Assembly: GCA_035623255.1 (NCBI GenBank)
Contig: DASPTU010000125.1
Span: 166,818-198,817 of the forward strand
Direction: 5' to 3'
DNA: 32,000 bases
Source of the DNA: Terriglobales bacterium
GTDB lineage: Bacteria; Acidobacteriota; Terriglobia; Terriglobales; Acidobacteriaceae
Position 1 is the first letter of the stretch, and every line of letters starts with the position of its first letter. A model generated the notes under the pieces. That model saw only the letters and a list, made by a program, of their open reading frames with translations. It ran no database searches and was not told the DNA's origin. The position numbers were made by a program, and so were the translations under genes. Positions 176-21,594 of the stretch are shown here, one piece after another.

Positions 176-1933
176 ATGCTGCCCAAGAGCCTGCGCCCTC
201 TTTATTCCTACCTCAAGAAATACCGTGGCAGCTACCTGATCGGAACGCTCTGCGTTTTCCTGCATAACGGAATCTGGATTCTTTTCCCTCTAGTCATCCG
301 CCGCGCCATAGACGACTTGCACCTCGGGGTCACTCGCCAGAAATTGCTGACTTTTGCCCTGCTCCTGCTCGCGATTGCATGTGCGAAGGGCATCTTTCAA
401 TTTCTTACCCGCTGGATAGTGATTGGTGTGTCGCGCGAAATCGAATTTGATCTACGCAACGATCTTTTCCGCCACCTCGAGAAACTCTCTTACTCGTACT
501 ATCAGCGCACTCGCACGGGTGACATCATGGCCCGTGCAACCAACGACTTGAATGCCGTCCGTATGCTTTTGGGGCCGGCCATCATGTATTCGGCGAACAC
601 AATTGTCTTCACCGCCGGCGCACTTGCGTTCATGCTGTCGATCAGCCCGCGCTTGACTCTGTATGCCTTCCTGCCATTACCTGTCGTCAGCATTACTATC
701 CAGTATTTCGGCCGTCAAATTCATGAGCGCTTCGAAAAAATCCAGGCGATGTTTTCTGATATTTCTGCCCGTGCCCAGGAGAATTTCTCGGGCGTACGAG
801 TGATTCGCGCCTACGTGCAGGAAGAGGCGGAAATCGCCGCTTTTGAAGCCGCCAATCAGGAATACATCGGCCGTAGCCTGAAGCTGGTCCGGTTAATGGG
901 GATGCTCTGGCCGACCCTCGAAATCATGCTGGGATTTGCCATCGTCCTGGTGCTCTGGCTCGGCGGCCGCGAGGTTTTGCAACGGCGCATTACCGTCGGC
1001 GATTTTGTCGCCTTCAACACCTACATGGTACAGCTTACTTGGCCGGTCATCGCGCTGGGCTGGGTCATCAATATTTTCCAGCGAGGAACGGCCTCCATGG
1101 GACGCATCAATCAAATCCTCGTGGAAAAACCGGAAATTGCCGACACCGTTGAACTGAAGTCCTGGAAGGATGTTCCGGTCACCCACATCGAGGGCGAGAT
1201 CCAATTTCGCAATCTGAATTTTGCTTACAACGGCACATCGGTGCTCCACGACGTCAACTTGCGCATTCCGGCGGGTACGAGTCTTGCCATCGTTGGCCCA
1301 ACGGGGTACGGCAAAACCACCTTGGTCAGTTTAATTCCGCGCATCTACGATGCGGCGCCGGGTATGGTCCTCATCGACGGCAGACCGATCCGTGACTATC
1401 CGCTTGAATTCCTTCGAAGGAACATCGGTTTCGTCCCGCAGGAAACTTTCCTGTTCAGCGAGAGTGTGCGCGAGAACATCGCATTCGGTGTGCAAGGTGC
1501 GACCGACTCGGAAGTCCGGGGAGCCGCGCAGGCTGCCAGTATCGCTGATGATATCGAGAGCTTTCCCGAACAGTACAAGACTCTCGTCGGCGAACGTGGC
1601 ATCACGCTCTCCGGCGGGCAAAAGCAGCGCACGGCAATCGCTCGCGCCTTGATCCGCAACCCCAGAATTTTGATCCTCGACGATGCGCTCTCCAGCGTCG
1701 ATACGCATACCGAGGACAAGATTCTCAATCATCTGCGCGAAATCATGGCTGGCCGGACCACGATTTTCATCTCACACCGCGTATCGACTGTTCGCAACGC
1801 AGACATGATCGCAGTTTTACACGGCGGCCGAATCGTTGAACTGGGAACCCACGAGGAACTGCTGGCCAGGAACGGCTACTACACCGATCTCTACAACAAG
1901 CAGCTTTTGGAGGAAGAACTGGCCGAGGTCTGA
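176..1933 (+). CDS. ABC exporter, fused permease and ATPase (MsbA/ABCB-like half transporter)
   Basis: 585-aa ORF with an N-terminal multi-TM exporter domain. The C-terminal NBD has Walker A GPTGYGKTT, signature LSGGQKQR, Walker B ILILDD and H-loop FISHR. Confidence 0.9.
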   Translation: MLPKSLRPLYSYLKKYRGSYLIGTLCVFLHNGIWILFPLVIRRAIDDLHLGVTRQKLLTFALLLLAIACAKGIFQFLTRWIVIGVSREIEFDLRNDLFRHLEKLSYSYYQRTRTGDIMARATNDLNAVRMLLGPAIMYSANTIVFTAGALAFMLSISPRLTLYAFLPLPVVSITIQYFGRQIHERFEKIQAMFSDISARAQENFSGVRVIRAYVQEEAEIAAFEAANQEYIGRSLKLVRLMGMLWPTLEIMLGFAIVLVLWLGGREVLQRRITVGDFVAFNTYMVQLTWPVIALGWVINIFQRGTASMGRINQILVEKPEIADTVELKSWKDVPVTHIEGEIQFRNLNFAYNGTSVLHDVNLRIPAGTSLAIVGPTGYGKTTLVSLIPRIYDAAPGMVLIDGRPIRDYPLEFLRRNIGFVPQETFLFSESVRENIAFGVQGATDSEVRGAAQAASIADDIESFPEQYKTLVGERGITLSGGQKQRTAIARALIRNPRILILDDALSSVDTHTEDKILNHLREIMAGRTTIFISHRVSTVRNADMIAVLHGGRIVELGTHEELLARNGYYTDLYNKQLLEEELAEV

Positions 1934-1966
1934 CACAAAGTCACAAAGAGGCAATCGAAACTTGGC

Positions 1967-1990
1967 AATTGTCAATTTCAGATGACAATT
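1967..1990. promoter_or_regulatory. Perfect 8-bp inverted repeat AATTGTCA-N8-TGACAATT, a candidate operator or weak hairpin
   Basis: Read directly from the sequence: arms at 1967-1974 and 1983-1990. It lies between the ABC exporter stop (1933) and the likely methyltransferase start (2113). The arms are AT-rich within a GC-rich genome. Confidence 0.3.
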
Positions 1991-2112
1991 TGATCCTGAC
2001 GGCTTGGAATACTGGAAGCTGTATACGCGAACGGCGCTTCAGAAGAGTATTGTCGTCCGGCACTGCTGATTATGCAGCCCTGAATATCATCCTTCTGCAA
2101 CAGGAGGAAAAT

Positions 2113-2802
2113 GTGAAACGGTTTTCTGTCCCGGAATTCCTGGACAGCGATGCGGGTACAACTTGCGAAGTGCGGACTGCGTTAACAGACCTGCAGCGCA
2201 TCAACCGTTGGTTCGGCGGCACTGCGACGACTCTAGCCATGCTGGAACGGGTCCTCGATTGTACGAACAAGCACGATCTGTCTTTTCTGGAGGTGGCCTC
2301 GGGCACGGCAGAAGTCCCGGAGATAGCTGCAGGCACTGCATCCAGGCGCGGTATTGTCCTCCGCACCTTCCGTGTGGACCGCGCGGCCTCGCACCTGACG
2401 AATGGCAGCAGAAAAGCGCACGACGCAATTGTCGCAGACGCGCTGCATTTGCCGTTCGCTGACCGGAGCATTGACCTGGTCAGTTGCGGCTTGTTTGCCC
2501 ATCACCTCGACCCGCAGCAACTGATGCGATTTGGGAAGGAAGCATTGCGGGTTGCGCGTGTCGCGTTGCTGGTCAACGACTTGGTACGAAACCCCGCACA
2601 CTGGGCGGCGGCATGGATAGGACGACCGCTGTGGCGCAGCCGACTGACGCGCCACGATAGTGTTGTATCCGTCCGCAGTTCCTACACGCCTGGAGAACTT
2701 CGCTCGTTGCTGCAGCAGGCTGGTGCCGCGGAGGTCGAGATTAGTCGGCATTACTTCTTCCGCATGGGCGCAATTGTCTGGTCGACACCAGCAACGAGTT
2801 GA
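2113..2802 (+). CDS. Class I SAM-dependent methyltransferase
   Basis: Motif I-like LEVASGTAEV is followed by acidic and hydrophobic post-motifs (DLVSCGLFAHHL, LLVNDL). AGGAGG at 2102-2107 sits 5 nt upstream of GTG 2113. The longest ORF starts at ATG 1969, but that start has no SD. Confidence 0.75.
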   Translation: MKRFSVPEFLDSDAGTTCEVRTALTDLQRINRWFGGTATTLAMLERVLDCTNKHDLSFLEVASGTAEVPEIAAGTASRRGIVLRTFRVDRAASHLTNGSRKAHDAIVADALHLPFADRSIDLVSCGLFAHHLDPQQLMRFGKEALRVARVALLVNDLVRNPAHWAAAWIGRPLWRSRLTRHDSVVSVRSSYTPGELRSLLQQAGAAEVEISRHYFFRMGAIVWSTPATS

Positions 2803-2844
2803 CGTCACCCCAAAAAGTCGGCAGAATGTCTCGATTTTCGGAGA

Positions 2845-4254
2845 ATGAACGTGGAGATCACGTTCCCCCCGTGCATGGCCCAACCCTCGCCCATCCCTGC
2901 CGCTCACCCCAGCAAACCGCCCGGACCTCACGGTAATCTGTTGACCGGCAATTTCCGCGAGTTGCGCCAGGACGCACTAAGCTTTCTGACCCGATGCGCT
3001 CAGGAATATGGAGACATCGTGCGCTACCGCCTGGTCACATTTTACGGTTATCTGCTCAACCACCCGGACTACGTCGAGGAGGTGCTCGTTAATAACAGTA
3101 AAAACTTCATCAAGGGACGGGGGCTGCGCGCAAATCGCGCTCTGTTTGGCGAAGGGTTGTTGACCAGCGAGGGCGAAGTCTGGTTGGAGAAGCGCCGCAT
3201 CGCGCAACCCGCGTTTCATCCGCGGCGAATTGACGAGTATGGACAGCTGATATTGCCGCACGTCACGACTGCTCTGAGTGGTTGGCGCGACGGAACAGAA
3301 CGGGACATTGCGGCTGACATGATGAGCGTCACGTTGCAAATCGCTGCCAAGGCGTTTTTCGGCGCAGACCTCGCCGATCAAATTCCCGGTTTCCAACTGG
3401 CGTTCGAGGAGATTTCTCGCCAGAACGCCGGCCGTACTCGCCTGTTCCACCTCCCGGATATGATCCCCACGCCCGCCAACGTTCGATACAACCGCGCAGT
3501 CCACACCCTCGATTCCGTTGTCTACCGCATCATTCGGTGCCGCCGTGCCCAGAGGCGACATAATGACGATCTCCTCTCCATGCTGCTGCAGGCTCACGAC
3601 GAGGCGGGAGGACGGACCAGTGAGCGGCAGTTGCGAGATGACGCCATGACTTTCTTGCTCGCCGGACACGAGACCACTGCTTTAACCCTCTCCTGGGCCT
3701 GGTACTTGCTGGCACAAAATCCCCAAGCCGAACTGCAATTGGTGGAGGAACTCAAGCGCGTGTTGGCGGGACGCATGCCCGCTGTGCAGGACCTTGCATA
3801 CCTGCCCTACACTGAGGCGGTTATCAAGGAGACGATGCGCCTCTATCCGCCCGCCTGGCTTATGGTTCGCCAATCTGTAAACGACTGCCGCATAGGTTGT
3901 TATCGCATTCCGGCTGGATCTTCTGTCGTCTTTAGCCAGTGGGTTTTGCACCGTGATCCTCGGTACTTCGAAGCTCCGCAAGCATTTCGCCCGGAGCGCT
4001 GGCTGGACGGATTGGAAAAAAGATTGCCCCGCTTTGCTTACTTCCCATTTGGCGGCGGTCCCCGGTTATGCATCGGCGCGCCATTTGCCCTCATGGAAGC
4101 TTGCCTGTTGCTGGCCGCCATTGCATCGCAATTCCATTTCGATCTTCTCCCGTGGCCGGTCGTGCCCATGGCAGCTATCACGTTGAGACCGAAATTTGGC
4201 ATCAGAGTTCGTTTGTCCAGGCGGCAGCCAACAAATTCTTTGCGAACCAACTAG
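2845..4254 (+). CDS. Cytochrome P450
   Basis: 469 aa with I-helix AGHETT, K-helix ExxR (ETMRLYPP) and the heme-thiolate loop FPFGGGPRLCIG. The EGEVWLEKRRIAQPAF segment resembles fatty-acid-hydroxylase-type P450s (CYP4/CYP110-like, from memory). Confidence 0.9.
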   Translation: MNVEITFPPCMAQPSPIPAAHPSKPPGPHGNLLTGNFRELRQDALSFLTRCAQEYGDIVRYRLVTFYGYLLNHPDYVEEVLVNNSKNFIKGRGLRANRALFGEGLLTSEGEVWLEKRRIAQPAFHPRRIDEYGQLILPHVTTALSGWRDGTERDIAADMMSVTLQIAAKAFFGADLADQIPGFQLAFEEISRQNAGRTRLFHLPDMIPTPANVRYNRAVHTLDSVVYRIIRCRRAQRRHNDDLLSMLLQAHDEAGGRTSERQLRDDAMTFLLAGHETTALTLSWAWYLLAQNPQAELQLVEELKRVLAGRMPAVQDLAYLPYTEAVIKETMRLYPPAWLMVRQSVNDCRIGCYRIPAGSSVVFSQWVLHRDPRYFEAPQAFRPERWLDGLEKRLPRFAYFPFGGGPRLCIGAPFALMEACLLLAAIASQFHFDLLPWPVVPMAAITLRPKFGIRVRLSRRQPTNSLRTN

Positions 4255-4311: not shown

Positions 4312-6009
4312 ATGGCTTGCGATATTTTGATTATGGGAGGTGGAGCTACCGGACAACTGGCGGCGGCTTACTTGCGCAAACGCTTTCCGGCTTTGAGCAT
4401 TACAGTGGTAGAGGGCCCTGGCAAGAACCGTCCCATAGTCGGCGAGTCCTTCGTTGAGCTGACCATTGATTTCCTGCTCGAACTCGGCCTCGGCGCCTAC
4501 CTGGTCGAAGAGCATTATCCCAAATACGGGCTCACCTATTACCACAAACTCAATATTGAAAATCCGGCGGACCGCACCTACTTCGTCGACGAGGCCCCCA
4601 CGGTACCGCCTCAGCTGTCGTTCCAGGTGAACCGCTTCACGTTTGACCGGGAAGTGCGCCGTCGCAACTGCCAGAATGGCGTGCAGATGGTGGCCGGCAC
4701 GGTCGTGTCGGTCGAACTCGCTCAGGCCGGCGAACTGCATTGCATCACGGTGGAAGACGCGGCTCGTCAGAAGTCGGCCTTACACGCCCGATGGTTGATC
4801 GATGCCACTGGACGCAATCGCGTCCTCGCTAAGTCGCTGCACCTTCAGCAAACCGTCAAAGAGCAGAAGAACGTTTTCTGGTTTCGTTTGGCCAACTTTG
4901 ATGCCGACATCATGGGACGCATCCATGCGTTGAAGAAAGAGAACCGCGCTTTCGTTCCCTACTTCGCAACCCATCACTTCTTTGGCAAGGGCAATTGGAT
5001 CTGGTGTATTCCCATGCGCTCTCCGGAGGCGCGCTCATTCATCAGCATCGGCATTACCTACCGTACCGACCAGTACCCGTATGGCGAACCCCGCAACCTG
5101 GAGCAGTTCTTGGAGTGCGTAGGGCAGGAGCACCAGGTCATCGTCGAGCTTGTGCGAAGTGGCACCGTCGTAGACTCGAATTTCTATCGCTCCTACATGT
5201 GGGAGTGCCGACAGCGATATTCACCCGATCGCTGGTACATTCTGGGCGATGCCGGCGATACGGTGGACCCGCTCTACAGCGTCGGTATGGCGCTGGCATC
5301 GATGCAGATCCGCCAAATCGGCGCCATCGTCGAACGTGACCTCGCCGGCCGGGACATCGCTGACTTTACTCGCGACCTCGACACTGTCATTGCCACTTTT
5401 CAGCGCAGTGTGACTCGTGATACCACCCGCCTCTACGAGTGCATGGGTGACCCGTATCAGTGCCACTTGCGGGTTCACCTGGTCGTCAGCAAGCTTTTTC
5501 ATTTCGCCGTCCCGCTGCTGATCAACGGCTATGCCTGGGACCCGCTGGGAGCTAAGCTCATCAACCGCTTCGCCAGCCTGCAAAGGCTTGAAGACGACTC
5601 CCGCCTGTTCCACGACTTGATTCGGAAAGTTGCCCAGGATCCTGAGAACTGCCGGCCGGAAAACTTCATCAAGGTGCAGTCCTCGGATTCCATGAATTAC
5701 AAATTTCTGGAGTGCCACCGCGAGCAGGACATTCCCGATTCCTTGGCGCAACTTCTCTTTTCGCTGGCTCGGTTGCGGCTTGGTCTACTGTTAAAACTCC
5801 GATCGCGGGCCTTGACGCAGTGGCCGCAGCATCGCGCGCTCGTCCTTGATGTTGTTCGCGGGCTGGTGCTAAAGGGGTTGTTCTCAGGCGTCAAATTTCG
5901 CGAAAGCCGCCTGGTACGCCGATTCGTTGCCGGAGCTGAGGCCCAGCCCGGCCCGGCACCGGCGGTTGCTGCTGCCTCCACCCAGCCGGTCAAAACTCCA
6001 TTGACTTGA
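4312..6009 (+). CDS. FAD-dependent enzyme with flavin-dependent halogenase signatures
   Basis: N-terminal GxGxxG (IMGGGATGQ) and a VGES motif. A candidate catalytic Lys lies in YPKYGLTYY. WLIDATGRN and GDAGDTVDPLYSVG are present, and WIWCIP (4996-5013) matches the halogenase-diagnostic WxWxIP. The ~150-aa C-terminal extension ends in a low-complexity A/P tail. Confidence 0.65.
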   Translation: MACDILIMGGGATGQLAAAYLRKRFPALSITVVEGPGKNRPIVGESFVELTIDFLLELGLGAYLVEEHYPKYGLTYYHKLNIENPADRTYFVDEAPTVPPQLSFQVNRFTFDREVRRRNCQNGVQMVAGTVVSVELAQAGELHCITVEDAARQKSALHARWLIDATGRNRVLAKSLHLQQTVKEQKNVFWFRLANFDADIMGRIHALKKENRAFVPYFATHHFFGKGNWIWCIPMRSPEARSFISIGITYRTDQYPYGEPRNLEQFLECVGQEHQVIVELVRSGTVVDSNFYRSYMWECRQRYSPDRWYILGDAGDTVDPLYSVGMALASMQIRQIGAIVERDLAGRDIADFTRDLDTVIATFQRSVTRDTTRLYECMGDPYQCHLRVHLVVSKLFHFAVPLLINGYAWDPLGAKLINRFASLQRLEDDSRLFHDLIRKVAQDPENCRPENFIKVQSSDSMNYKFLECHREQDIPDSLAQLLFSLARLRLGLLLKLRSRALTQWPQHRALVLDVVRGLVLKGLFSGVKFRESRLVRRFVAGAEAQPGPAPAVAAASTQPVKTPLT

Positions 6010-7324: not shown

Positions 7325-7508
7325 AGTCTGCCCTCAAGACATGGTGTAATATACTCCCCCGATTATCGGATGGGGATTTTGTTGTCAGTTTCTCCCCCGA
7401 CCCGCCGATACACCGTGACATGCCGTCGTGGCGTTTCCGATCAGCCGTGATTGTCGCGTGCTGAACGACGGCCGTCAAACGCTGACTAGAAATTCGCGAG
7501 GGCGAACC

Positions 7509-14748: not shown

Positions 14749-16401
14749 ATGCACGTGTCGGAAGTGGGGCTCCGACAACTCGCATCGTCCGGTTGCCCTG
14801 GCCAGGAAGAAGACTTTCCTCCGCTCGGCCGCAACATCAAGGTGCTGATGGTCTGGCCGCGTGTTCCCAAATCATTTTGGGCAACGCCCGACATTCTTCC
14901 CGTAAGCGCCGTGACGGCCCCCTTGGGGCTCATCACCGTGGCCGCTTTATGCCCGCCGTATTGGACCGTCCGGCTCATCGACGAATCGGTCGAAGACGTA
15001 ACCGATGCTGACCTCCGTGATTGCGACTTGGTCATGGTCAGCGGCATGTACGTCCAGAGGAGCGGCATCGAGAGGATCCTCGGACGAGCTCGCGCCCTCG
15101 GGAAACGCACCATGGTAGGTGGCCCGTTCACCAGCAGCGACCCCAACACTGTGCTCCCCCTGGCGGATCATGTCGTGGTGGGTGAACCTGACGCGGAGTT
15201 CCGCCGCATCGCAACCGCGCTCGAAGAGGGCACCGCGGCCCGCCTTTATGTCATCGAGGACAAACCCGATGTAACCTGCACACCTGTGCCCCGATTCGAC
15301 CTGCTGAACATGAATGCTTACGCCAACATGCCGATACAGTTTTCCCGGGGCTGCCCGTTCGAATGCGAGTTCTGCGACATTATTTCGATATATGGACGAA
15401 GGCCTCGCACCAAAACTCCCGCGCAGCTTCTCCGTGAACTCGATCGCTTGTACGAGTTGGGATGGCGAAGGCCCGTCTTCCTGGTCGACGACAATTTCAT
15501 TGGCAATCACAAACTGGCACTTAACCTGACCCGTCAGATGGAGGGATGGTCGCGAGCGCACAACTATCCCTTCGCATTCCTGACCGAGGCTTCCGCTGAC
15601 CTGGCACAGCGACCCTTACTGCTGCAATCCATGGTCGAGGCCAACTTCTTTGCGGTATTCCTTGGCCTTGAAACCCCTTCCAGCGACGCACTCAAGGAAA
15701 CCAGAAAATTTCAGAACTTGCGCGCTGATCCCTTAGCGACGGTCCGTTTTCTTCAGGAAAATGGCCTCTGGATCCTGGGAGGTTTCATCATCGGTTTCGA
15801 CTCCGACACCGCCGGCATTTTTGAGCAGCAACGCGAGTTCATTGAGCGCGCGGCCATTCCCTGGGCCATGCTGGGATTTCTGCAGGCGCTGCCTCAGACG
15901 GGCCTGTACGAGCGCCTCCGCAAGGAGGGTCGGCTCCTCAAAGGTGAGCCGATCGGCAATAACTATGCGCCGCCCAACTTCCGTACTCTTCTGCCCCGCA
16001 CGACCCTGGTCAAAGGCGTCGGGGATACGCTGCGGTCTATCTACTCCCCTGCTGAGTTCTATCGCCGCTGCCTTCGTTCCCTGGAGTACTGGAAAACACG
16101 CGAGCCCCAGCAACCACCCCGGCCCAGATTAGGAGAAGCGATGCTTCTGGTAGTTCGCTGCCTTTGGCACCAGGGCGTGAAATCCAATTACCGCAGAGAA
16201 TGGTGGAAGTTCCTGTTCGCCATTCTGCGCCGCTGGCTTTTTGTGCCCATGAAAATGTGGTGGGGATGGGTATTGTTAATTTCGGCCGATCACTTTTGTC
16301 AGTACGCCGCCCAAGTAGTGGCAGAGCTCAATCGCGAAGCACAGACCCAAAAGAGCGAGCCTTTGCCGACGAGGTCGGAATCCGCAGTTTGCGCTCGGTA
16401 G
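14749..16401 (+). CDS. B12-binding-domain radical SAM enzyme (class B, long C-terminal extension as in the DUF4070 type)
   Basis: The N-terminal cobalamin-binding-like region reads IKVLMVWPRVPKSFW...DLVMVSGM. The radical SAM cluster motif CPFECEFC (CxxxCxxC) is at 15352-15375. Start ATG 14749 is preferred over TTG 14725. Confidence 0.85.
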   Translation: MHVSEVGLRQLASSGCPGQEEDFPPLGRNIKVLMVWPRVPKSFWATPDILPVSAVTAPLGLITVAALCPPYWTVRLIDESVEDVTDADLRDCDLVMVSGMYVQRSGIERILGRARALGKRTMVGGPFTSSDPNTVLPLADHVVVGEPDAEFRRIATALEEGTAARLYVIEDKPDVTCTPVPRFDLLNMNAYANMPIQFSRGCPFECEFCDIISIYGRRPRTKTPAQLLRELDRLYELGWRRPVFLVDDNFIGNHKLALNLTRQMEGWSRAHNYPFAFLTEASADLAQRPLLLQSMVEANFFAVFLGLETPSSDALKETRKFQNLRADPLATVRFLQENGLWILGGFIIGFDSDTAGIFEQQREFIERAAIPWAMLGFLQALPQTGLYERLRKEGRLLKGEPIGNNYAPPNFRTLLPRTTLVKGVGDTLRSIYSPAEFYRRCLRSLEYWKTREPQQPPRPRLGEAMLLVVRCLWHQGVKSNYRREWWKFLFAILRRWLFVPMKMWWGWVLLISADHFCQYAAQVVAELNREAQTQKSEPLPTRSESAVCAR

Positions 16402-16412
16402 AAATCCCTTCG

Positions 16413-17816
16413 TCAGTTCTCTGCGTGCCCCAGGGCTTGAAGGGGGTGGCCTGAGTCGCGTAGTGGCTGCGCGTGCAGCGTCATCATGATTTTTCGGCGC
16501 GGCCGCAAACTGATCCGGGGCTCTGTACCGATCGGCGGACCGGGAACGACATCCAGGCGCCATCGTTGTGCAATCATCGCCAGCACCAGCTCCGCTTCCA
16601 TGCTGGCAAAGCGTTTGCCCAAACAAAGTCGTGGCCCTCCTCCGAAGGGAAAATAAGAGAACGGATGACGTCCTTGCGAGCGGTCGGGCGAAAATCGTTC
16701 TGGGTCGAAGCCTTCCGGGTTTTCCCATGAAGCGGGCCGGCGGTGTGCCGAGTAGGGACTGATCACAAGTACCGACTTCGCCGGTATGTGGTAACCATCG
16801 ATGTTGTCGTCCGCGATTGCCGTCCGAGCAATGGCCCAGGCGGAAGGATAAAGCCGCAGCGTCTCCTGGACGACCATGCGCGTATAAACCATTCGAGGAA
16901 GATCGTGAAACGTCGGCGTGCGCTCTCCCAGCAGGTCGCGCACTTCGTGGTACAGCTTTGTCGCGGCCACCGGGTTTCGGGACAGCAAATACCATGCCCA
17001 GGCGATCGCGTTGGCGGTCGAATCGTATCCCGAATCCACGAGCGTGATCATCGCATCCCGAATGTGCCGGTCATCCAGGCCGGAACCATTGTCTCTGTCG
17101 CCCACCAGCAGGGACAATACGTCCGTCTGCTGCTGGGGGCAGCGCCGCCGCCGCTCGATCAACCCGTAGGCGAAACTGTCGATGGTACGCAGCGCCTTGC
17201 GCAGTCTCAGATTGGCCGGCGTCGGCAAACGGTTCAACAACGGCCGCAACGGATTTAAGCCGGATGCCGGCTTAATCCGCTGTTCCGCCGTCTCCAGGGC
17301 GGGGCACAAACTTGCGCCATGCACCGCCAGTTGCGTGCTGAACAGGGTCCTCAAGAGGATATCCAGCGTGAGATTGCGCATTTGCTCGCGGATGTCGATA
17401 GCCCGGCCGGACTCGCCTGTCTCATCCCATGCGCGCAGCAGATTGAGGGTCGCCTCTACGATGATCCGCGCAAATTCCGGATCGTGATCGCTATAAAACG
17501 CAGGTTGCGTTTGCCGGCGCTGGCGATGCCACTCTTCTCCCTCGGCCGTAACCAGCCCATCACCATGCATTCTTCTCAACTCGTCGTAGAGTGAACCCTT
17601 GCTGTAATTCATGTAATTGTCTTGCAGAATGTGTTTGATGTGCTGAGGGTCGTTCAGCAGGAACACCGGCCGCAGACGCCGGTGGCCGACGCGAACTACA
17701 TCGCCATACTCGCCGAAGAGTTGTAACAACAGGTTGGGCGCATCCTGCAGAAGACTAGGCAGCAGGCGGATAAATTCCAACGTCGAAGGTCCAGGAGCAA
17801 CTCTTGCGATCTTCAT
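16413..17816 (-). CDS. Cytochrome P450, paralogue of the 2845-4254 gene
   Basis: Heme loop FPFGGGPRLCLG and ExxR ETLRLYPS are present. The I-helix is the variant DSGYDSTA, and EGEEWHRQRRQTQPAF is also present. The longest ORF starts at GTG 17906. ATG 17816 (MKIARVAPGP...) gives a typical P450 length. Confidence 0.88.
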   Translation of the reverse strand: MKIARVAPGPSTLEFIRLLPSLLQDAPNLLLQLFGEYGDVVRVGHRRLRPVFLLNDPQHIKHILQDNYMNYSKGSLYDELRRMHGDGLVTAEGEEWHRQRRQTQPAFYSDHDPEFARIIVEATLNLLRAWDETGESGRAIDIREQMRNLTLDILLRTLFSTQLAVHGASLCPALETAEQRIKPASGLNPLRPLLNRLPTPANLRLRKALRTIDSFAYGLIERRRRCPQQQTDVLSLLVGDRDNGSGLDDRHIRDAMITLVDSGYDSTANAIAWAWYLLSRNPVAATKLYHEVRDLLGERTPTFHDLPRMVYTRMVVQETLRLYPSAWAIARTAIADDNIDGYHIPAKSVLVISPYSAHRRPASWENPEGFDPERFSPDRSQGRHPFSYFPFGGGPRLCLGKRFASMEAELVLAMIAQRWRLDVVPGPPIGTEPRISLRPRRKIMMTLHAQPLRDSGHPLQALGHAEN

Positions 17817-18181
17817 GCGGCTGCACACGGTATCGGGCGCCGCCCGATAAGCTGAGGTCATCGCCAATGGGCACCTCCCGTCTGTTGCTCCGGGGGCCGG
17901 AAGCACTGAAGCGAAGTACGTCAGCCCGCCCGGCTCTCCCGATGCCAGCGAAGCACGGTCTTAAATCCGCGACAAGACCGGCACTCGAGAGAAACAGAGC
18001 GTATCCGCATGCCCCGTCCCAGACTCGTCTGACGCGCATCAGCATACGCCCAGCCATTCTGAAGTCAAGTCCGGCGCGGCTTTCTTCACGCCCACTATTG
18101 AGAAAGCCAATCCTTCAGCCGCACGATTATCGCCTGAATCGCCTTCTTCCAGCGGCGCAACTCAACGTTCCACTTTGCACC

Positions 18182-19462
18182 TCAAGAGCGCAAGCGGACA
18201 TCAGACTCATCAGGACTGGACAACTCCAAAACAGCGGGTTCGCAAAATGATTGCCCCGATTTTCTAAAAATCAGGTTCAATAAAGGGTTGGTTGCGGCAG
18301 TTGTGATTATGGTCATTGAGACAAAGATGGTAAAGAGCGCAGCCGAGAACACCCCTGCGTCATAGGCAATCTTTAAAACAACCAACTCAACCAAACCTCG
18401 CGTATTCAGAAGCGTGCCAATCGCGAGCGAGTTTCTCCACGATTGCCCAAAACAGCGGGCCGCAACTGCGGCGCCTCCCATCTTGCCTGCAATTGCCCCT
18501 AGAAGAACAATCATCATCCACAGAGCGACAGCTCGATTAGCGAGCAGGTCAATTCTCGTGTGTATGCCCGTCAGCACGAAAAATAAAGGAAGAAGAAATG
18601 TGGATACGATTGTGTTTAGACTTTTGCGAACTTCCTTCTGCCAATCACGATTTCGAGGTAAACACAAACCGGCTACGAAAGCTCCAAATAAAGGGTGCAC
18701 TCCAATAGCCTCAGTGCAGGCAGCCGACGCGAACACGCCGGCCAGAGTACATCCCCAAACTTCAAGAGACATTACGGGATACCGCATACGTCGCTGCCAG
18801 CTCCAGGCGATCGGTCGAACGACCCTGAACATCACTGCCACGTAAGCGATCAGGCCAAATAGGCGCAACGATAGCAACGCTGGATTGTTGCTCGATCGCT
18901 CTAAAGCAAGCGCGAGTGCCAGTAACGACCATGCAACCACGTCATCCACGGCAGCACAAGAAATCGCTATTGTGCCCAGCGAACTTGCAAGCAGACCCCG
19001 TTCTTCAAGGATCTTAGCTAGCACTGGGAAGGCGGTAATGCTCATCGAAATCCCAACAAATAGAATGAATGTGCTACTAGGAATTTCCCGAGGGGCAAAC
19101 CTGGCTTGAAGGGGATGGGAAATCACAATCGCGATGCAAAAAGGTAGCAGGATGCTGACACTGCTGATTAGAGTTATAGGTATGCGTTGACCGTAGAGCT
19201 GATTGAGATCTATCTCAGTTCCAACGATGAAGAGAAAAAGAATAAGCCCGAGCGTGCTCAAAACCTCGAAAGCCGCCAGCGAACCATTCGGAAAGAATAC
19301 TGCGTACAAGTTTGGAAAAAACCGACCGACAACTGACGGCCCCACCACTATCCCGCCTATGATTTGTCCAATGACGCGCGCCTGTCCCAACTTGGTTGCG
19401 ATCCAGCCACATGTCAAAGTGACTAGCAGGATGACGACGGTTTGGGCCAAAAAGAGGAGCAT
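18182..19462 (-). CDS. Cation:proton antiporter (CPA2, Kef/NapA-type Na+/H+ exchanger family)
   Basis: 426 aa and polytopic. The N-terminus LGQARVIGQIIGGIVVGPSVVG is typical of this family. The gene is visibly more AT-rich than its neighbours. Confidence 0.85.
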   Translation of the reverse strand: MLLFLAQTVVILLVTLTCGWIATKLGQARVIGQIIGGIVVGPSVVGRFFPNLYAVFFPNGSLAAFEVLSTLGLILFLFIVGTEIDLNQLYGQRIPITLISSVSILLPFCIAIVISHPLQARFAPREIPSSTFILFVGISMSITAFPVLAKILEERGLLASSLGTIAISCAAVDDVVAWSLLALALALERSSNNPALLSLRLFGLIAYVAVMFRVVRPIAWSWQRRMRYPVMSLEVWGCTLAGVFASAACTEAIGVHPLFGAFVAGLCLPRNRDWQKEVRKSLNTIVSTFLLPLFFVLTGIHTRIDLLANRAVALWMMIVLLGAIAGKMGGAAVAARCFGQSWRNSLAIGTLLNTRGLVELVVLKIAYDAGVFSAALFTIFVSMTIITTAATNPLLNLIFRKSGQSFCEPAVLELSSPDESDVRLRS

Positions 19463-19722
19463 CGATTGTGGTGATTAGAGTCGATTTTGAGATCGTTCGT
19501 TGGCGCGATGCATGAAATACCAAATTCTGGAAAAGGATGCAAGTGGCGGTCGGCACCGGGGCTGTGATGCCTAGGCAAACACCCACACTGGAATGGGTTG
19601 ACTTAAGGGGGATCTATTCGAGGTCTTGAATGCCCACTCATATTCAGCACAACGGTGCCGCAGTAAATGTATAAAGCAAGGTCTCTCGGACCTATACACT
19701 AAGTAATCGCTGAGCACGCGAC

Positions 19723-20814
19723 ATGTATGACCTGATCGTCATTGGCGGCGGACCGGCAGGCGCCTCCGCGGCCATCACTTCCTGCCGAACCGGTGCTCAC
19801 GTCCTGCTGCTCGAGCGTGGCCGTTTCCCTCGCCACAAAGTTTGCGGCGAGTTCGTCTCGGCTGAGGCACTCGGGTTGCTCGGCTCCTTGCTTGAACTTA
19901 CTTATTCCAGTCTCCCGTACGCAGTCCCAATTCCACGAGCAAGATTTTTTGTCGATGACCGCGTACTAGAGGCAGCAGTTCAACCGGCAGCCGCTAGCAT
20001 AGCCCGTCTAGACCTCGACAGATCCTTGTGGGACTCCGCCGAGCGATGCGGCACCGAAGCCAGGCAGCAGGTCATCGTGCAGAACTTAAGCGGCTCCGGC
20101 CCATTTGTCGTCTGCACTTCGATTGGCGATTTCGAAACCCGTGCTGTCGTGAATGCATCAGGCCGCTGGTCGACTTTGAATGGAGCGCAGTCGCGCAACG
20201 GAAACGGAGGTGCGAAGTGGATCGGTCTCAAGGCTCACTACCTGGAGCCTGCCCCGCCCGCGTCCGTCGACCTTTACTTTTTCGATGGTGGCTATTGCGG
20301 CGTCCAGCCCGTAAACCTGAGTTCCGCTCACGATCAAGCTCGCGTCAACGCCTGCGCCATGGTGCGGGCCGATGTCGCTTCGACCATGCCGGAAACATTT
20401 GAGCTGCATCCGGCACTACGTGAACGGGCGGCCCGATGGACACCCGTCATGAATCCGGTTGGTGTGTCGCCGCTCTTGTTTGGGAAACCTCGGCCTATCG
20501 AGGGGAGCGTCCTATCCGTGGGCGATGCCGCAGGCTTTGTCGACCCCTTCGTCGGGGATGGAATCTCGCTTGCCTTGCGGAGTGGCGCGCTGGCCGCAGA
20601 GTCACTCGCCCCGTTCTTTGCTGGCCAACTTTCGCTGGCCCAGGCAATCAGGCAATATGCTGAAAGCTATCAGCTACATTTCGCTTCTGTCTTCCGGTCA
20701 TCATCCAGGATTCGTCGGATGCTGCGTCTGCCCCGTCCCGTCCGCGCCCCAATTCTGTCACTTCTGGCGCACAGCACGGCCGTTACCGAGTACCTGGTGA
20801 GGCAGACAAGATGA
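19723..20814 (+). CDS. FAD-dependent oxidoreductase (geranylgeranyl-reductase-like fold)
   Basis: 363 aa with the dinucleotide motif DLIVIGGGPAGASAA, HKVCGEFVS, and the second FAD motif GDAAGFVDPFVGDGISLAL. Confidence 0.8.
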   Translation: MYDLIVIGGGPAGASAAITSCRTGAHVLLLERGRFPRHKVCGEFVSAEALGLLGSLLELTYSSLPYAVPIPRARFFVDDRVLEAAVQPAAASIARLDLDRSLWDSAERCGTEARQQVIVQNLSGSGPFVVCTSIGDFETRAVVNASGRWSTLNGAQSRNGNGGAKWIGLKAHYLEPAPPASVDLYFFDGGYCGVQPVNLSSAHDQARVNACAMVRADVASTMPETFELHPALRERAARWTPVMNPVGVSPLLFGKPRPIEGSVLSVGDAAGFVDPFVGDGISLALRSGALAAESLAPFFAGQLSLAQAIRQYAESYQLHFASVFRSSSRIRRMLRLPRPVRAPILSLLAHSTAVTEYLVRQTR

Positions 20815-20871
20815 TGCCTGATGCGCGGGAATCCCAGATTCAGCTTCTTCTGCCGACGTCCTGAACACTAC

Positions 20872-21594
20872 TCAACGCACCACGAGCACTTCTCGGACGT
20901 TATCGCGAGTGAGGAAAAACTTAATGGAAGAAAAATCACGAAACAAATTCTCGATGTGCCGGTTATTGAACACTCGCTGCAGCCGGAAACTTCTTTGTAT
21001 CGCGGTATGCACGGCGCCGGTAGGCCCTTTGCGAACGTCCCGCCGGGCTCCGATCGGCTGCATTTCGAGCGTGTCCGGCCCGACGATATGGTAGCGATAA
21101 CAAGGCGCGTCAGGCCCTGCTTCCCGAGTATGAAAGAACGCCAGCAACATCGCTCCCGGCTTGGTCATGGTCCACAAACGCGCCACCACGGGCTTGACCA
21201 GGCTTTCATCGAGATAATCGGCCAGGTTCCAGCAGAATACGAGATCGAATTGCCCAGCCCCCTGGAGCAGGTTCTCCGCCAGAAATTTTTTTTCGTCCAG
21301 CACCCGTTCTCCCTGCTCGTTCCTGGTGACCAGGGCCGGGTCGGTCGAGGCCTCGAGAAGATCTTCGCTATATATTTTGTGTCCGCGCTCAGTGAGATAG
21401 CGAATGTTGGCGGCGGAGGTGGAACCGATATCCAGAATGCAAAGCGGCTCCTCTGATTTCAACACGCGTGCCAGTTCCGTCAGTCCGCTCGAGCGACGCG
21501 TGAGCCGCTGTTTGGCTTGGTCAGGCTTTTCTCCAGAAGCAGCTTCAGTTGAGCCACGAAATAGTTTCATGACGCTCTGGGTTACTGACGGCAT
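20872..21594 (-). CDS. Class I SAM-dependent methyltransferase
   Basis: 240 aa with motif I ILDIGSTSAAN, acidic loop YSEDL, FDLVFCWNLADYL and PGAMLLAFF. The overlapping + strand ORF (20821-21456) has no recognisable motifs. Confidence 0.75.
   Translation of the reverse strand: MPSVTQSVMKLFRGSTEAASGEKPDQAKQRLTRRSSGLTELARVLKSEEPLCILDIGSTSAANIRYLTERGHKIYSEDLLEASTDPALVTRNEQGERVLDEKKFLAENLLQGAGQFDLVFCWNLADYLDESLVKPVVARLWTMTKPGAMLLAFFHTREAGPDAPCYRYHIVGPDTLEMQPIGARRDVRKGPTGAVHTAIQRSFRLQRVFNNRHIENLFRDFSSIKFFLTRDNVREVLVVR

What the first reader, a model, noticed from the sequence alone, without database searches (positions are those of the whole stretch)
176..21594. Candidate uncharacterised pathway for an exported, tailored lipid or polyketide, built around a DevBCA-TolC exporter
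About 21 kb contains a compact set of biosynthetic and export genes.
- Condensation: two condensing enzymes with intact Cys-His-His triads and their own ACP.
- Tailoring: a class-B (B12) radical SAM enzyme, two paralogous fatty-acid-hydroxylase-like P450s, a flavoenzyme with the WxWxIP halogenase motif, two SAM methyltransferases and a second FAD oxidoreductase.
- Export: a complete tripartite exporter (TolC-like, DevB-like, DevC-like, DevA-like) and an MsbA-like ABC exporter.

In cyanobacteria, DevBCA-TolC exports heterocyst glycolipids made by an adjacent PKS/FAS-like island, so KS/ACP next to devBCA is a meaningful parallel. The tailoring set here (halogenase-like, B12-rSAM, P450 x2) is different. 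No AT, KR, DH, ER, TE, PPTase or glycosyltransferase is visible, so the chain would have to borrow FAS II functions or use genes elsewhere. The genes switch strand six times with very tight convergent junctions. That looks like a mosaic cluster, not a single operon.
Basis: partly seen in the sequence, partly recalled or inferred. Interest (0 to 1): 0.85.

Follow-up and report, generated by a model that had tools for sequence, protein, structure and literature searches.

The report
Acidobacterial lipid-tailoring locus with DevBCA exporter
A soil acidobacterium (Terriglobales) carries a recurring but uncharacterised set of genes that probably lengthens and decorates a fatty-acyl lipid and pumps it to the cell envelope; the product is unknown, and the lipid-building genes, not the pump, are the conserved core.

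Summary
All named genes are present with intact catalytic motifs, and DevB, DevC and DevA pass NCBIfam's curated cut-offs.

Comparative data support a functional cluster.
- The minus-strand ketosynthase (KSm) belongs to a monophyletic clade. In six of eight independent lineages it lies beside other window genes, in shuffled orders: MT1, P450s, ACP-KSp, the B12-type radical SAM, the GGR-like flavoprotein, and Hal-OEP-DevBCA.
- 73 loci holding the sister family, a standalone KS next to rpsA, show none of these partners in 616 kb of flank.
- Sister clusters add a fatty-acid desaturase, a cyclopropane-fatty-acid-synthase-type methyltransferase and a second radical SAM. The chemistry is therefore acyl-lipid tailoring, not polyketide assembly.

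The interpretation needs three corrections.
- The conserved core is KSm plus MT1, with or without ACP-KSp, GGR-like and P450. The Hal-OEP-DevBCA block is an accessory module seen in three lineages.
- The MsbA-like exporter is not conserved.
- Each component family also occurs widely, and dispersed, across Terriglobia.

The product, halogenation, cobalamin use and export are all inferred. I found no published description in the held library.

Verdict: a new variant of a known kind, namely FAS-like lipid clusters coupled to DevBCA export. Interest is moderate.

The parts
176..1933 (+). ABC exporter half-transporter, MsbA/SmdA-like (585 aa). Membership in the cluster is weak.
   Evidence: Pfam ABC_membrane plus ABC_tran. 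MsbA-type NCBIfam models score 425-443 bits, below their cut-offs. It is not present next to MT1 in L172 or L009.
1969..2802 (+). Class I SAM methyltransferase MT1. The likely true start is near 2113, giving about 229 aa. It is the most constant partner of KSm.
   Evidence: Pfam Methyltransf_11/25. Orthologues at 41-67% identity lie beside KSm in L009, L010, L095, L098 and L172. There is no informative PDB relative.
2845..4254 (+). Cytochrome P450 (P450a)
   Evidence: Pfam p450 283 bits. Heme loop FPFGGGPRLC and I-helix AGHETT. The MT1-P450a pair is conserved in L009 and L172.
4312..6009 (+). Flavin-dependent halogenase-like protein (Hal) with a helical C-terminal extension of about 200 aa
   Evidence: Pfam Trp_halogenase. 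The best PDB matches by sequence and by fold are the halogenases PltA, ChlB4, PltM, Mpy16, Bmp2, CtcP and CmlS. GxGxxG, K71, WxWxIP and GDA..DP are invariant in 37 homologues. It lies next to OEP/DevBCA in L096 and L172.
5990..7324 (-). TolC-like outer-membrane factor (OEP)
   Evidence: Pfam OEP 170 bits, two repeats. TIGR01844 scores 132 bits, below its 225 cut-off. Its position is conserved in L096 and L172.
7428..8948 (+). DevB-family membrane-fusion protein with an N-terminal AMIN domain. The gene call in the identical contig starts at 7509.
   Evidence: TIGR02971 239 bits against a cut-off of 129. Pfam AMIN, HlyD_3 and HlyD_D23. Gene call.
8945..10099 (+). DevC ABC permease (FtsX/MacB type). 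Its start overlaps the devB stop by 4 bp.
   Evidence: TIGR01185 472 bits against a cut-off of 290. Pfam FtsX plus MacB_PCD.
10109..11449 (+). DevA-family ABC ATPase fused to a C-terminal GAF domain
   Evidence: TIGR02982 349 bits against a cut-off of 296. Pfam GAF 70 bits. The fusion is kept in L004, L096/97 and L172. Full-length fusion relatives exist in about 15 of the top 150 representative clusters.
11458..12708 (-). FabF-type ketosynthase KSm. It is the marker of the cluster clade.
   Evidence: Pfam ketoacyl-synt N and C domains. Cys-His-His intact. TIGR03150 scores 419, below its 494 cut-off. It falls in a monophyletic cluster-type clade separate from 72 rpsA-adjacent KS.
12823..12851 (-). 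Near-consensus sigma-70-like promoter (TTGGCA-17-TATAAT) about 115 bp upstream of KSm, in the divergent KSm/ACP intergenic region
   Evidence: This site matches 11 of 12 positions. The scan as a whole is not enriched over shuffles.
13051..13308 (+). Dedicated acyl carrier protein (85 aa)
   Evidence: Pfam PP-binding. DSL serine present. TIGR00517 scores 57.5, below its 70.45 cut-off.
13318..14541 (+). FabF-type ketosynthase KSp, 10 bp after the ACP gene
   Evidence: Pfam. Cys-His-His intact. TIGR03150 scores 457, below its 494 cut-off. JGI labels its relatives 'nodulation protein E'.
14749..16401 (+). Class-B-architecture radical SAM enzyme: B12-binding-like Rossmann domain, radical SAM core and DUF4070
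   Evidence: Pfam. CxxxCxxC at residue 210. The start comes from the identical protein P0001. The model has pLDDT 82.7, and its best fold matches are AprD4, MgmA/QCMT, OxsB, CysS and TsrM. It is clustered in L004, L093/L172 and L097.
16413..17906 (-). Cytochrome P450 (P450b). The gene call is 482 aa, starting at 17861.
   Evidence: Pfam p450 287 bits. PDB relatives are CYP97A3, CYP170A1, CYP46A1, CYP4B1 and BM3. It lies directly upstream of (ACP-KSp-)KSm in L093/L172 and L096/97.
18182..19462 (-). CPA2-family cation/proton antiporter. It recurs next to the cluster, but its role is unknown.
   Evidence: Pfam Na_H_Exchanger. TIGR00932 is below cut-off. A homologue lies beside P450b in L096/L097 and beside the GGR-like gene in L010.
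19723..20814 (+). Geranylgeranyl-reductase-family FAD flavoprotein (GGR-like). It has no WxWxIP motif.
   Evidence: TIGR02032 scores 111, below its 159 cut-off. Motifs. Orthologues at 48-49% identity follow MT1 in the L010 and L098 operons.
20872..21594 (-). Second class I SAM methyltransferase (MT2), unrelated to MT1. Its conservation outside the near-identical contigs is not shown.
   Evidence: Pfam Methyltransf_23/11/25/12, weak hits. No similarity to MT1. Among the related loci fetched it was matched only in L001-L003.

Best explanation
The locus is a multi-operon pathway for a specialised fatty-acyl lipid of the cell envelope. Proposed steps, all inferred from family chemistry:
1. A dedicated ACP and two FabF-type condensing enzymes, KSm and KSp, take an acyl chain from ordinary FAS II. 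They extend it on the private ACP and borrow FabG, FabZ and FabI for the reductive steps.
2. The chain is then decorated by a small SAM methyltransferase (MT1), one or two P450 hydroxylases and a GGR-type flavin reductase.
3. A class-B-type radical SAM enzyme also acts on the chain, most plausibly by C-methylation or another radical modification of an unactivated carbon.
4. A PltA/CmlS-type flavin-dependent halogenase acts as well.
5. Sister clusters add a DesA-type desaturase and a CFA-synthase-type methyltransferase, the classical route to mid-chain methyl or cyclopropyl groups.
6. In the lineages that carry the accessory block, the finished lipid is handed to a DevBCA-type ABC exporter that docks to a TolC-like channel. 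It is delivered to the outer membrane or cell surface, as heterocyst glycolipids and bartolosides are in cyanobacteria. The GAF domain on the ATPase would gate export.

Shown here: gene identities, motifs, family membership of DevBCA, and recurrent co-localisation. Inferred: every chemical step, the substrate, cobalamin use, halogenation and export.
For: Gene identities and intact catalytic motifs.

Recurrence of the cluster:
- L004 (83-96% identity) keeps DevB-DevC-DevA.GAF-KSm-ACP-KSp-rSAM-P450.
- L172 (65-86%) keeps MT1-P450a-Hal-OEP-DevB-DevC-DevA.GAF-KSm-KSp-ACP-P450b. Here the ACP-KSp pair is inverted, and the rSAM homologue P0006 has a longest contig of the same length, 37,074 bp, in the same sample, so it is probably the same contig.
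- In L093, the same lineage as L172 (identical KSm), the rSAM lies a few kb upstream of P450b.
- L096/L097 keep rSAM...P450b-KSm | DevA.GAF-DevC-DevB | OEP | Hal.
- L009 has MT1-P450a-KSm-ACP-KSp.
- L010 has one co-directional operon: unk282(signal peptide)-YceI-KSm-ACP-KSp-MT1-GGR.
- L098 has KSm-MT1-GGR, and L095 has ACP-KSp-KSm-MT1.

Specificity:
- Cluster-type KSm is monophyletic.
- 8 of 10 loci in that clade, or 6 of 8 independent lineages, have partner genes.
- 0 of 73 loci of the sister rpsA-adjacent KS family have any, over 616 kb of flank.

Functional coherence:
- Relatives add FA_desaturase, a CMAS-family methyltransferase and a small radical SAM/SPASM.
- L010 adds periplasmic YceI and a secreted protein.

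Precedents:
- DevBCA-like exporters sit inside cyanobacterial lipid clusters, including the halogenated bartolosides (PMC6836626).
- The anammox candidate cluster combines an ACP, two FabF homologues, an FAD enzyme and a B12 radical SAM (PMC10139942).

No repeats, tRNAs or mobile-element signs were found.
Against: - The three lineages with the full arrangement are fairly close relatives (KSm 84-96% identical). Part of the synteny may simply be inherited.
- L094, with a KSm 85% identical, has none of the partners within 10 kb.
- Hal homologues about 70% identical stand alone in L173 and L174, and lie behind an RND pump in L175.
- rSAM homologues 56-59% identical are in unrelated contexts.
- The genes lie in up to eight transcription units with no shown co-regulation.
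- No acyltransferase, thioesterase, PPTase or head-group enzyme is present to release or attach the chain.
- The best fold match of the radical SAM is AprD4, which has a B12-like domain but does not use cobalamin.
- No product is known.
Confidence: 0.55

Rival explanations
1. A mosaic of independent modules that are neighbours only by descent. Hal-OEP-DevBCA.GAF, and perhaps the MsbA-like exporter, form an efflux or detoxification unit unrelated to lipid synthesis. The KS, ACP, rSAM, P450, methyltransferase and GGR-like genes serve one or more separate functions.
For: - Hal homologues associate with a different pump type (OEP-MFP-RND) in L175 and occur alone in L173 and L174.
- The core KSm-MT1 sets in L009, L010, L095 and L098 lack DevBCA.
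- The window has seven strand switches and many separate transcription units.
- Acidobacteria carry many MacB/ADOP-type pumps; one more lies at 24442-26913.
Against: - KSm abuts DevA.GAF tail-to-tail in three lineages even though the ACP-KSp, rSAM and desaturase genes around it are rearranged.
- Hal is flanked on its other side by MT1-P450a, which in L009 sits directly beside KSm.
- DevBCA-family pumps have documented lipid cargos (PMC6836626).
Confidence: 0.2
2. Core membrane-lipid remodelling, not an exported speciality lipid. The families are parts of a phylum-wide pathway that modifies bulk membrane acyl chains, for example by mid-chain methylation, hydroxylation or chain coupling. The genes are usually dispersed and are only occasionally gathered. 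The exporter is incidental, or serves outer-membrane lipid homeostasis.
For: - Each family is abundant and highly conserved across Terriglobia. There are thousands of rSAM homologues at 56-64% identity, hundreds of Hal homologues at 66-74%, and KS families at 55-76%.
- KSm-like genes sit in core-genome synteny next to rpsA/glmM/cdaA.
- ACP-KSp-like pairs sit in argC-argB...rpiB synteny.
- The basal L010 KSm is in an operon with ACP-KSp-MT1-GGR.
- Relatives include a desaturase and a CFA-synthase-type methyltransferase.
- The enzymes that make the signature iso-diabolic acid of aerobic Acidobacteria are unknown (PMC13159169).
Against: - Cluster-type KSm is a separate clade from the rpsA-adjacent KS. 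It may be a neofunctionalised paralogue, not the core enzyme.
- The cluster is rare among the loci sampled.
- A halogenase and a TolC-coupled exporter are not expected for bulk inner-membrane lipids.
- No lipid data are available.
Confidence: 0.2
3. Housekeeping FAS II. Under this reading the KS and ACP genes are the organism's ordinary fabF/acpP, and the rest is unrelated.
For: Both KS pass the broad KAS II subfamily model PRK07314 (436 and 414 bits against a cut-off of 387) and have intact triads.
Against: - Both KS fall below the fabF equivalog cut-off (457 and 419 against 494), and the ACP falls below the AcpP cut-off (57.5 against 70.45).
- There is no fabH, fabD, fabG or plsX nearby.
- The two KS are divergently arranged and only 37% identical to each other.
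- KSm belongs to a specialised clade.
Confidence: 0.03

Closest known systems
Cyanobacterial heterocyst-glycolipid island (hglE/hglCD/hetM etc.) with the DevBCA-HgdD(TolC) exporter
   Same: It has a DevB/DevC/DevA-family tripartite ABC exporter plus a TolC-like channel (curated models passed). It is encoded beside KS- and ACP-containing lipid-synthesis genes. The cargo is expected to be a long-chain envelope lipid. The heterocyst export role is stated from my own knowledge, and PMC6836626 refers to DevBCA as a glycolipid export system.
   Different: The window has no HglE-type PKS modules, reductase/thioester-reductase or glycosyltransferase. Its tailoring set is different: halogenase-like, radical SAM, P450s and methyltransferases. 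Its DevA carries a GAF domain and its DevB an AMIN domain. The exporter block is accessory to the conserved core, not central.
Bartoloside (brt) and related cyanobacterial dialkylresorcinol clusters with BrtGHI
   Same: It is a DevBCA-like exporter embedded in a cluster for fatty-acid-derived alkyl lipids that are halogenated on the alkyl chain. Related clusters carry desaturases plus DevBCA (PMC6836626).
   Different: The halogenase there is the diiron CylC/BrtJ type, not a flavin-dependent enzyme. The scaffold is made by DarA/DarB-type condensation into a resorcinol and is then glycosylated. None of these genes is present here.
Putative ladderane lipid cluster of anammox bacteria (amxACP, amxFabZ, FabF2, FabF, phytoene-dehydrogenase-like enzyme, B12 radical SAM)
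   Same: It has the same logic of a private ACP, two FabF homologues, an FAD oxidoreductase and a class-B radical SAM in a FAS-like cluster. That cluster is also functionally unproven (PMC10139942; PMC13459092).
   Different: The radical SAM here is not a member of that family: TIGR04072 scores 48 bits against a cut-off of 360. There is no dedicated FabZ. The flavoprotein is GGR/halogenase-type, not PDH-type. The host is an aerobic soil acidobacterium.
Rhizobial NodF/NodE and AcpXL-FabF1XL-FabF2XL systems (own knowledge; JGI labels KSp relatives 'nodulation protein E')
   Same: A special ACP with one or two FabF-type KS diverts FAS II intermediates into an unusual acyl chain (polyunsaturated or very long) for an envelope or signal lipid. 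The reductive steps are borrowed from FAS II.
   Different: There is no FabZXL, LpxXL acyltransferase or nod gene here.
Mid-chain methyl-branch or cyclopropane routes: desaturase plus CFA-synthase-family methyltransferase, with or without an FAD reductase such as BfaB/BfaA (own knowledge)
   Same: Sister clusters L093 and L097 carry a DesA-type desaturase, L097 also carries a CMAS-family methyltransferase, and the core includes an FAD reductase-like protein next to a methyltransferase (L010, L098).
   Different: The window itself has no desaturase or CMAS gene. MT1 is a small generic class I methyltransferase, not CMAS.

Membership tests
DevBCA-type ABC exporter (heterocyst glycolipid exporter family) | DevB-family membrane-fusion protein | tested here: met
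   TIGR02971 239.1 bits against a cut-off of 129
DevBCA-type ABC exporter (heterocyst glycolipid exporter family) | DevC permease (FtsX/MacB type, about 385 aa) | tested here: met
   TIGR01185 equivalog 472.4 bits against 290.35, matched over the full length
DevBCA-type ABC exporter (heterocyst glycolipid exporter family) | DevA-family ATPase | tested here: met
   TIGR02982 349 bits against 295.8 for residues 4-222. The extra GAF domain is not part of the family model.
DevBCA-type ABC exporter (heterocyst glycolipid exporter family) | Partner TolC-type outer-membrane factor | tested here: inconclusive
   An adjacent OEP protein has two OEP repeats, but it is below the TolC and NodT NCBIfam cut-offs (132 against 225, 82 against 210). 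Physical docking is not testable.
DevBCA-type ABC exporter (heterocyst glycolipid exporter family) | Exports a glycolipid or lipid made by neighbouring genes | not testable with these tools
   This needs mutants and lipid analysis.
Heterocyst-glycolipid (hgl) synthase island | HglE-type modular PKS, HglC/D, HetM and a glycosyltransferase | tested here: not met
   Only free-standing FabF-type KS and an ACP are present. There is no AT, KR, DH, ER, TE or GT domain in the window.
Flavin-dependent halogenase | GxGxxG FAD motif and GDAxxxxDP motif | tested here: met
   GGGATG at residue 9 and GDAGDTVDP at 312. Both are invariant in the family.
Flavin-dependent halogenase | WxWxIP motif | tested here: met
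   WIWCIP at residues 229-234. W229, W231, I233 and P234 are invariant in 37 sequences.
Flavin-dependent halogenase | Catalytic lysine | tested here: inconclusive
   The invariant K71 in 'HYPKYG' aligns with the PltA 'FPKKFG' segment. However, the model is of low confidence there (pLDDT below 50 for residues 69-103), and I identified the PltA catalytic Lys from memory.
Flavin-dependent halogenase | Overall sequence and fold closest to known halogenases | tested here: met
   Pfam Trp_halogenase 62.6 bits against 21. The top PDB hits by sequence and by Foldseek are PltA, ChlB4, PltM, Mpy16, Bmp2, CtcP, CmlS and CndH. The top fold hit, 3nix, is an uncharacterised flavoprotein.
Flavin-dependent halogenase | Halogenating activity and a partner flavin reductase | not testable with these tools
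   No flavin reductase gene was recognised in the window. Activity needs an assay.
Class B (cobalamin-dependent) radical SAM enzymes | CxxxCxxC radical SAM core | tested here: met
   CPFECEFC at residue 210 of the 558-aa ORF (C202, C206 and C209 in the numbering of alignment A2), invariant in the family. Pfam Radical_SAM 48.9 bits against 29.5.
Class B (cobalamin-dependent) radical SAM enzymes | N-terminal cobalamin-binding domain that actually binds B12 | tested here: inconclusive
   Pfam B12-binding scores 31.4, below its 32.1 gathering score. A Rossmann-like N-domain is modelled with high confidence. The fold matches MgmA, OxsB, CysS and TsrM, but the best match is AprD4, a cobalamin-free enzyme.
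Known lipid-modifying B12 radical SAM families (ladderane-type TIGR04072, HpnR, HpnJ) | Score above the curated model cut-off | tested here: not met
   TIGR04072 48 against 360, HpnR 41.6 against 650, HpnJ 34.7 against 578
Beta-ketoacyl-ACP synthase II (FabF) | Cys-His-His triad and thiolase-fold KS domains | tested here: met
   Both KS. The subfamily model PRK07314 is passed (436.6 and 414.5 against 387).
Beta-ketoacyl-ACP synthase II (FabF) | Equivalog-level identity with housekeeping FabF, next to canonical acpP in a fab operon | tested here: not met
   TIGR03150 457.3 and 419.3 against 493.75. The ACP scores 57.5 against 70.45 on TIGR00517. There are no fab neighbours.
Membrane-spanning-lipid synthases (Mss/Tes) | Homology of a cluster radical SAM to Mss or Tes | not tested
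   No reference sequences were available. The only PDB sequence match of the rSAM was 9CCB, an MCR glutamine C-methyltransferase. PMC13159169 reports no mss homologues in acidobacterial genomes.

The most novel reading that the evidence does not exclude
The window is a rare 'gathered' version of a phylum-wide acidobacterial pathway whose parts are normally scattered: the rpsA-adjacent KS, the argCB-adjacent ACP-KS, the ubiquitous B12-type radical SAM and the conserved halogenase-like flavoprotein. Under this reading the pathway makes or modifies the signature lipids of Acidobacteria, namely mid-chain-methylated, very long or membrane-spanning acyl chains of the iso-diabolic-acid/brGDGT type. 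The enzymes for these lipids in aerobic Acidobacteria are unknown. The radical SAM and/or P450s would perform the C-methylation or C-C coupling.
Probability: 0.07. Interest if true: 0.9.

Novelty: new variant of a known kind. Interest (0 to 1): 0.55.

Why it matters
Acidobacteria are among the most abundant soil bacteria, yet the genetics of their unusual lipids is largely unknown. Their branched, membrane-spanning lipids underlie widely used palaeoclimate proxies. A 2026 review notes that radical SAM modification of fatty-acyl (ketoacyl) lipids has so far been proposed only for ladderanes and jawsamycin (PMC13459092).

This locus offers a compact, testable gene set: a private ACP, two dedicated ketosynthases, a class-B-type radical SAM, P450s, a conserved halogenase-like flavoprotein and a DevBCA exporter outside cyanobacteria. 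The minimal L010-type operon (KSm-ACP-KSp-MT1-GGR) is small enough for heterologous expression.

If the product proves to be an ordinary minor envelope lipid, the result is of specialist interest only.

Tried and rejected
- Rfam scan of the whole window found no riboswitch or RNA family, so no cobalamin or SAM riboswitch.
- Repeat and tRNA scans found no IS ends, integration sites or meaningful repeats.
- The promoter and terminator scan is not enriched over shuffles. Only one near-consensus promoter, upstream of KSm, is worth noting.
- ORF95 (12774-13061) is rejected as a gene. It has no Pfam hit, is not called in the identical contig, and overlaps the KSm promoter-like site.
- PDB searches with MT1, as a single sequence and as a six-sequence profile, and with MT2, gave only generic class I methyltransferases.
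- The AdhE-like 807-aa gene at the edge of L093 is a bona fide AdhE (1036 bits against 951). I do not count it as a cluster member.
- The MsbA-like exporter is rejected as a conserved member because it is absent in L172 and L009.
- The HpnR, HpnJ and ladderane-type identities for the radical SAM are rejected on curated scores.
- rSAM-anchored neighbourhoods at 56-61% identity (L005, L007, L008) do not carry the cluster. L007 and L008 show none of the window genes, while L005 has a KSm-family KS (76%) about 3 kb upstream.
- KSp-anchored GTDB loci (52-65% identity) turned out to be a different, core-syntenic ACP-KS pair, not the cluster.
- Literature searches for a description of this cluster, or of acidobacterial halogenase, KS or DevBCA clusters, found nothing specific. 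The library is limited to open-access papers and preprints.

Full report
**1. What is in the sequence**

The window's proteins match metagenome and MAG proteins labelled Terriglobales and Acidobacteriaceae. ORF listing and Pfam/NCBIfam scans give the following map for 176-21594.
- (+) ABC exporter, methyltransferase MT1, P450a, halogenase-like flavoprotein Hal
- (-) TolC-like OEP
- (+) DevB with an AMIN domain, DevC, DevA fused to GAF
- (-) ketosynthase KSm
- (+) ACP, ketosynthase KSp, B12-type radical SAM with DUF4070
- (-) P450b, and upstream of it on the same strand a CPA2 antiporter
- (+) GGR-family flavoprotein
- (-) methyltransferase MT2

Gene calls in an identical public contig agree, and they shorten a few starts. 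Beyond 21.6 kb lie a bactofilin, an unknown protein, DUF72, an ADOP duplicated permease and a Ser/Thr kinase.

The catalytic motifs are intact.
- Both KS have the Cys-His-His triad.
- The ACP has the DSL serine.
- The radical SAM has CxxxCxxC.
- Both P450s have the heme loop.
- Hal has GxGxxG, WxWxIP and GDA..DP.

DevB, DevC and DevA exceed NCBIfam's curated cut-offs. No AT, KR, DH, ER, TE, PPTase or glycosyltransferase domain is present.
- There are seven strand switches, not six.
- An antiporter gene was overlooked.
- The B12-binding hit is marginal (31.4 against 32.1 bits).
- The P450s resemble the carotenoid, sterol, terpene and fatty-acid hydroxylases CYP97, CYP170, CYP46, CYP4 and CYP102 alike.

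**2. Is the grouping more than chance?**

I anchored neighbourhood searches on four proteins.

*Radical SAM.* There are thousands of homologues at 56-64% identity in Terriglobia.
- The 83% relative, L004, keeps DevB-DevC-DevA.GAF-KSm-ACP-KSp-rSAM-P450.
- Three homologues at 56-61% do not carry the cluster. L007 and L008 are in unrelated contexts. L005 has only a KSm-family KS (76%) about 3 kb upstream.

*KSp.* Close relatives give two informative loci.
- L009 has MT1-P450a-KSm-ACP-KSp.
- L010 has a single co-directional operon: secreted unk282, YceI, KSm, ACP, KSp, MT1, GGR-like, with a CPA2 antiporter next to it.

More distant KSp relatives (52-65%) in GTDB genomes are ACP-KS pairs with none of the other genes.
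- In many of the Terriglobia and Bryobacterales loci they sit in a conserved argC-argB-GNAT-x-ACP-KS-rpiB context.
- They are also non-canonical by NCBIfam scores.

*KSm.* Eighty metagenome loci split cleanly.
- Homologues at 71-77% are a standalone KS, typically immediately downstream of rpsA near glmM, ybbR and cdaA.
- Homologues at 78-96% form a monophyletic clade that carries the window's partners.
- In that clade 8 of 10 loci, or 6 of 8 independent lineages after merging L093 with L172 and L096 with L097, have partners.
- None of the 73 sister-family loci has any partner across 616 kb of flank.
- The two exceptions in the clade are L092, which is too short, and L094, which has no partner within 10 kb.

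*Hal.* There are hundreds of homologues at 66-74% identity.
- L172 carries almost the whole cluster at 65-86% identity, with ACP-KSp inverted: MT1-P450a-Hal-OEP-DevB-DevC-DevA.GAF-KSm-KSp-ACP-P450b.
- The rSAM homologue P0006 comes from the same sample, and its longest contig has the same length as the L172 contig, so it is probably the same contig.
- In L093, the same lineage as L172, the rSAM lies a few kb upstream of P450b.
- Other Hal homologues are solitary (L173, L174) or sit directly behind an OEP-MFP-RND pump (L175).

**3. What the comparison says**

The constant partners of cluster-type KSm are MT1, then ACP-KSp, a P450 and the GGR-like flavoprotein.
- The Hal-OEP-DevBCA.GAF block is present in three lineages and always abuts KSm tail-to-tail.
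- The MsbA-like exporter is not conserved.
- MT2 was matched only in the near-identical contigs L001-L003 among the related loci fetched.

The sister clusters L093/L172 and L096/L097 add further genes between the radical SAM and P450b.
- Both add a DesA-family fatty-acid desaturase.
- Both add a second, small radical SAM/SPASM protein.
- L097 adds a cyclopropane-fatty-acid-synthase-family methyltransferase.

These additions, together with the periplasmic YceI and the secreted protein in L010, point to tailoring of a fatty-acyl chain destined for the envelope, not to a polyketide.

L010's KSm branches below the whole KSm family yet already sits in the KSm-ACP-KSp-MT1-GGR operon. The association may therefore be ancestral, with dispersal in most Terriglobia.

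**4. Individual enzymes**

*Hal.*
- The best sequence and fold matches are carrier-protein- or phenol-directed flavin halogenases: PltA, ChlB4, PltM, Mpy16, Bmp2, CtcP, CmlS and CndH.
- The motifs and a lysine aligned with the PltA 'FPKKFG' segment are invariant in the family.
- The model is poor around that lysine, and the top fold hit is an uncharacterised flavoprotein.
- A halogenase is likely but unproven.

*Radical SAM.*
- A confident model (pLDDT 82.7) has class-B architecture.
- Its relatives are MgmA/QCMT, OxsB, CysS and TsrM. The best match, however, is AprD4, which lacks cobalamin.
- It is not a member of the ladderane-type, HpnR or HpnJ families.
- C-methylation of an unactivated carbon is the most economical guess, but it is only a guess.

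*KS and ACP.* These are FabF-like and ACP-like but fall below the equivalog cut-offs, and no fab genes are nearby. The housekeeping explanation is therefore unlikely. I could not inspect the rest of the genome.

**5. Mechanism proposed**

A private ACP and two elongating KS divert a FAS II acyl chain. Methyltransferase, P450, flavin reductase, radical SAM and halogenase steps decorate it. Where present, DevBCA-TolC carries the product to the outer membrane or surface, with the GAF domain as a possible gate.

Gene identity, motifs and co-localisation are shown. All chemistry and transport are inferred.

The rivals are these.
- Unrelated modules inherited together, with Hal-OEP-DevBCA acting as an efflux or detoxification unit.
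- A core membrane-lipid remodelling pathway that is usually dispersed.
- Plain FAS II.

**6. Comparison with known systems**

The locus works like the cyanobacterial hgl/DevBCA-HgdD system and like the bartoloside cluster, in which a DevBCA-like exporter accompanies halogenated alkyl lipids (PMC6836626). It lacks their synthases and glycosyltransferases.

Its ACP, two FabF homologues, FAD enzyme and B12-type radical SAM mirror the unproven ladderane cluster of anammox bacteria (PMC10139942; PMC13459092). It fails that family's radical SAM model.

NodFE and AcpXL systems are functional analogies recalled from knowledge. They were not tested.

**7. Novelty and verdict**

I found no description of this cluster in the held literature.

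It is best filed as a new variant of a known kind: a FAS-like speciality-lipid cluster coupled to a DevBCA exporter, in Acidobacteria, with an unusual tailoring set. Interest is moderate at 0.55. The cluster is real and testable, but the product is unknown, the exporter link rests on three related lineages, and every component family is common.

The most novel reading not excluded is that these families together underlie the signature branched or membrane-spanning lipids of Acidobacteria, whose enzymes in aerobic members are unknown (PMC13159169). I give this about 7%.

Noticed in passing
window 10109-11449 (also L004, L096/L097, L172): The DevA ABC ATPase carries a C-terminal GAF domain. Full-length relatives of this fusion make up only about 15 of the top 150 representative clusters, against 16,488 hits at E<=1e-30. 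This suggests a small-molecule-gated exporter.
   Followed up: partly
window 7428-8948: The DevB membrane-fusion protein has an N-terminal AMIN domain. The orthologue in L172 is 350 aa and lacks it.
   Followed up: no
L099-L171 (e.g. L113 10001-11242, L121 6308-8020): Many of the 73 Terriglobia metagenome loci carry a standalone FabF-like KS (71-77% identical to KSm) immediately downstream of ribosomal protein S1. It is often near glmM, ybbR and cdaA, which is a core-genome position for a non-canonical ketosynthase.
   Followed up: partly
L014-L063 (e.g. L063 9720-11200): A non-canonical ACP-KS pair (55-64% identical to KSp, below the AcpP and FabF equivalog cut-offs) lies in a conserved argC-argB-GNAT-unknown(323 aa)-ACP-KS-rpiB-PGI-like arrangement in Terriglobia and Bryobacterales.
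   Followed up: partly
L020 9727-13491 (Acidobacteriaceae bacterium ZG23-2, CP085323.1): An ACP-KS pair is followed by a convergent NAD-dependent epimerase/reductase and a class I/II aminotransferase. The aminotransferase could be an alpha-oxoamine synthase, a possibility I did not test. The trio is reminiscent of sphingolipid or capnine-type pathways.
   Followed up: no
L175 4254-11683: A Hal homologue (71% identity) sits directly downstream of an OEP-MFP-RND efflux operon. The conserved halogenase-like flavoprotein is thus linked to two different pump types.
   Followed up: no
L010 6991-7839; also L009, L016, L041, L049, L052: A 282-aa protein with no Pfam family and an N-terminal signal peptide recurs beside ACP-KSp pairs. 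In L016 it is followed by a small radical SAM/SPASM protein 51% identical to the one in L093/L097.
   Followed up: partly
window 18182-19462; L096/L097; L010: A CPA2 cation/proton antiporter without a KTN domain recurs beside the cluster in three arrangements. The window copy lies in a stretch of lower GC (0.52) with strong AT skew.
   Followed up: no
window 24442-26913: An ADOP-family duplicated MacB-type permease (TIGR03434, 931 bits) is encoded without an adjacent ATPase gene.
   Followed up: no
window 12774-13061: This 95-codon ORF in the KSm/ACP divergent intergenic region has no family hit and is not called in the identical contig. It overlaps a near-consensus promoter for KSm and is probably not a gene.
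   Followed up: yes
L005 5797-11689: A KSm-family KS (76%) lies near a HpaB-type flavin monooxygenase, two unknown proteins and an rSAM homologue (58%). This is a different partial grouping of the same families.
   Followed up: no
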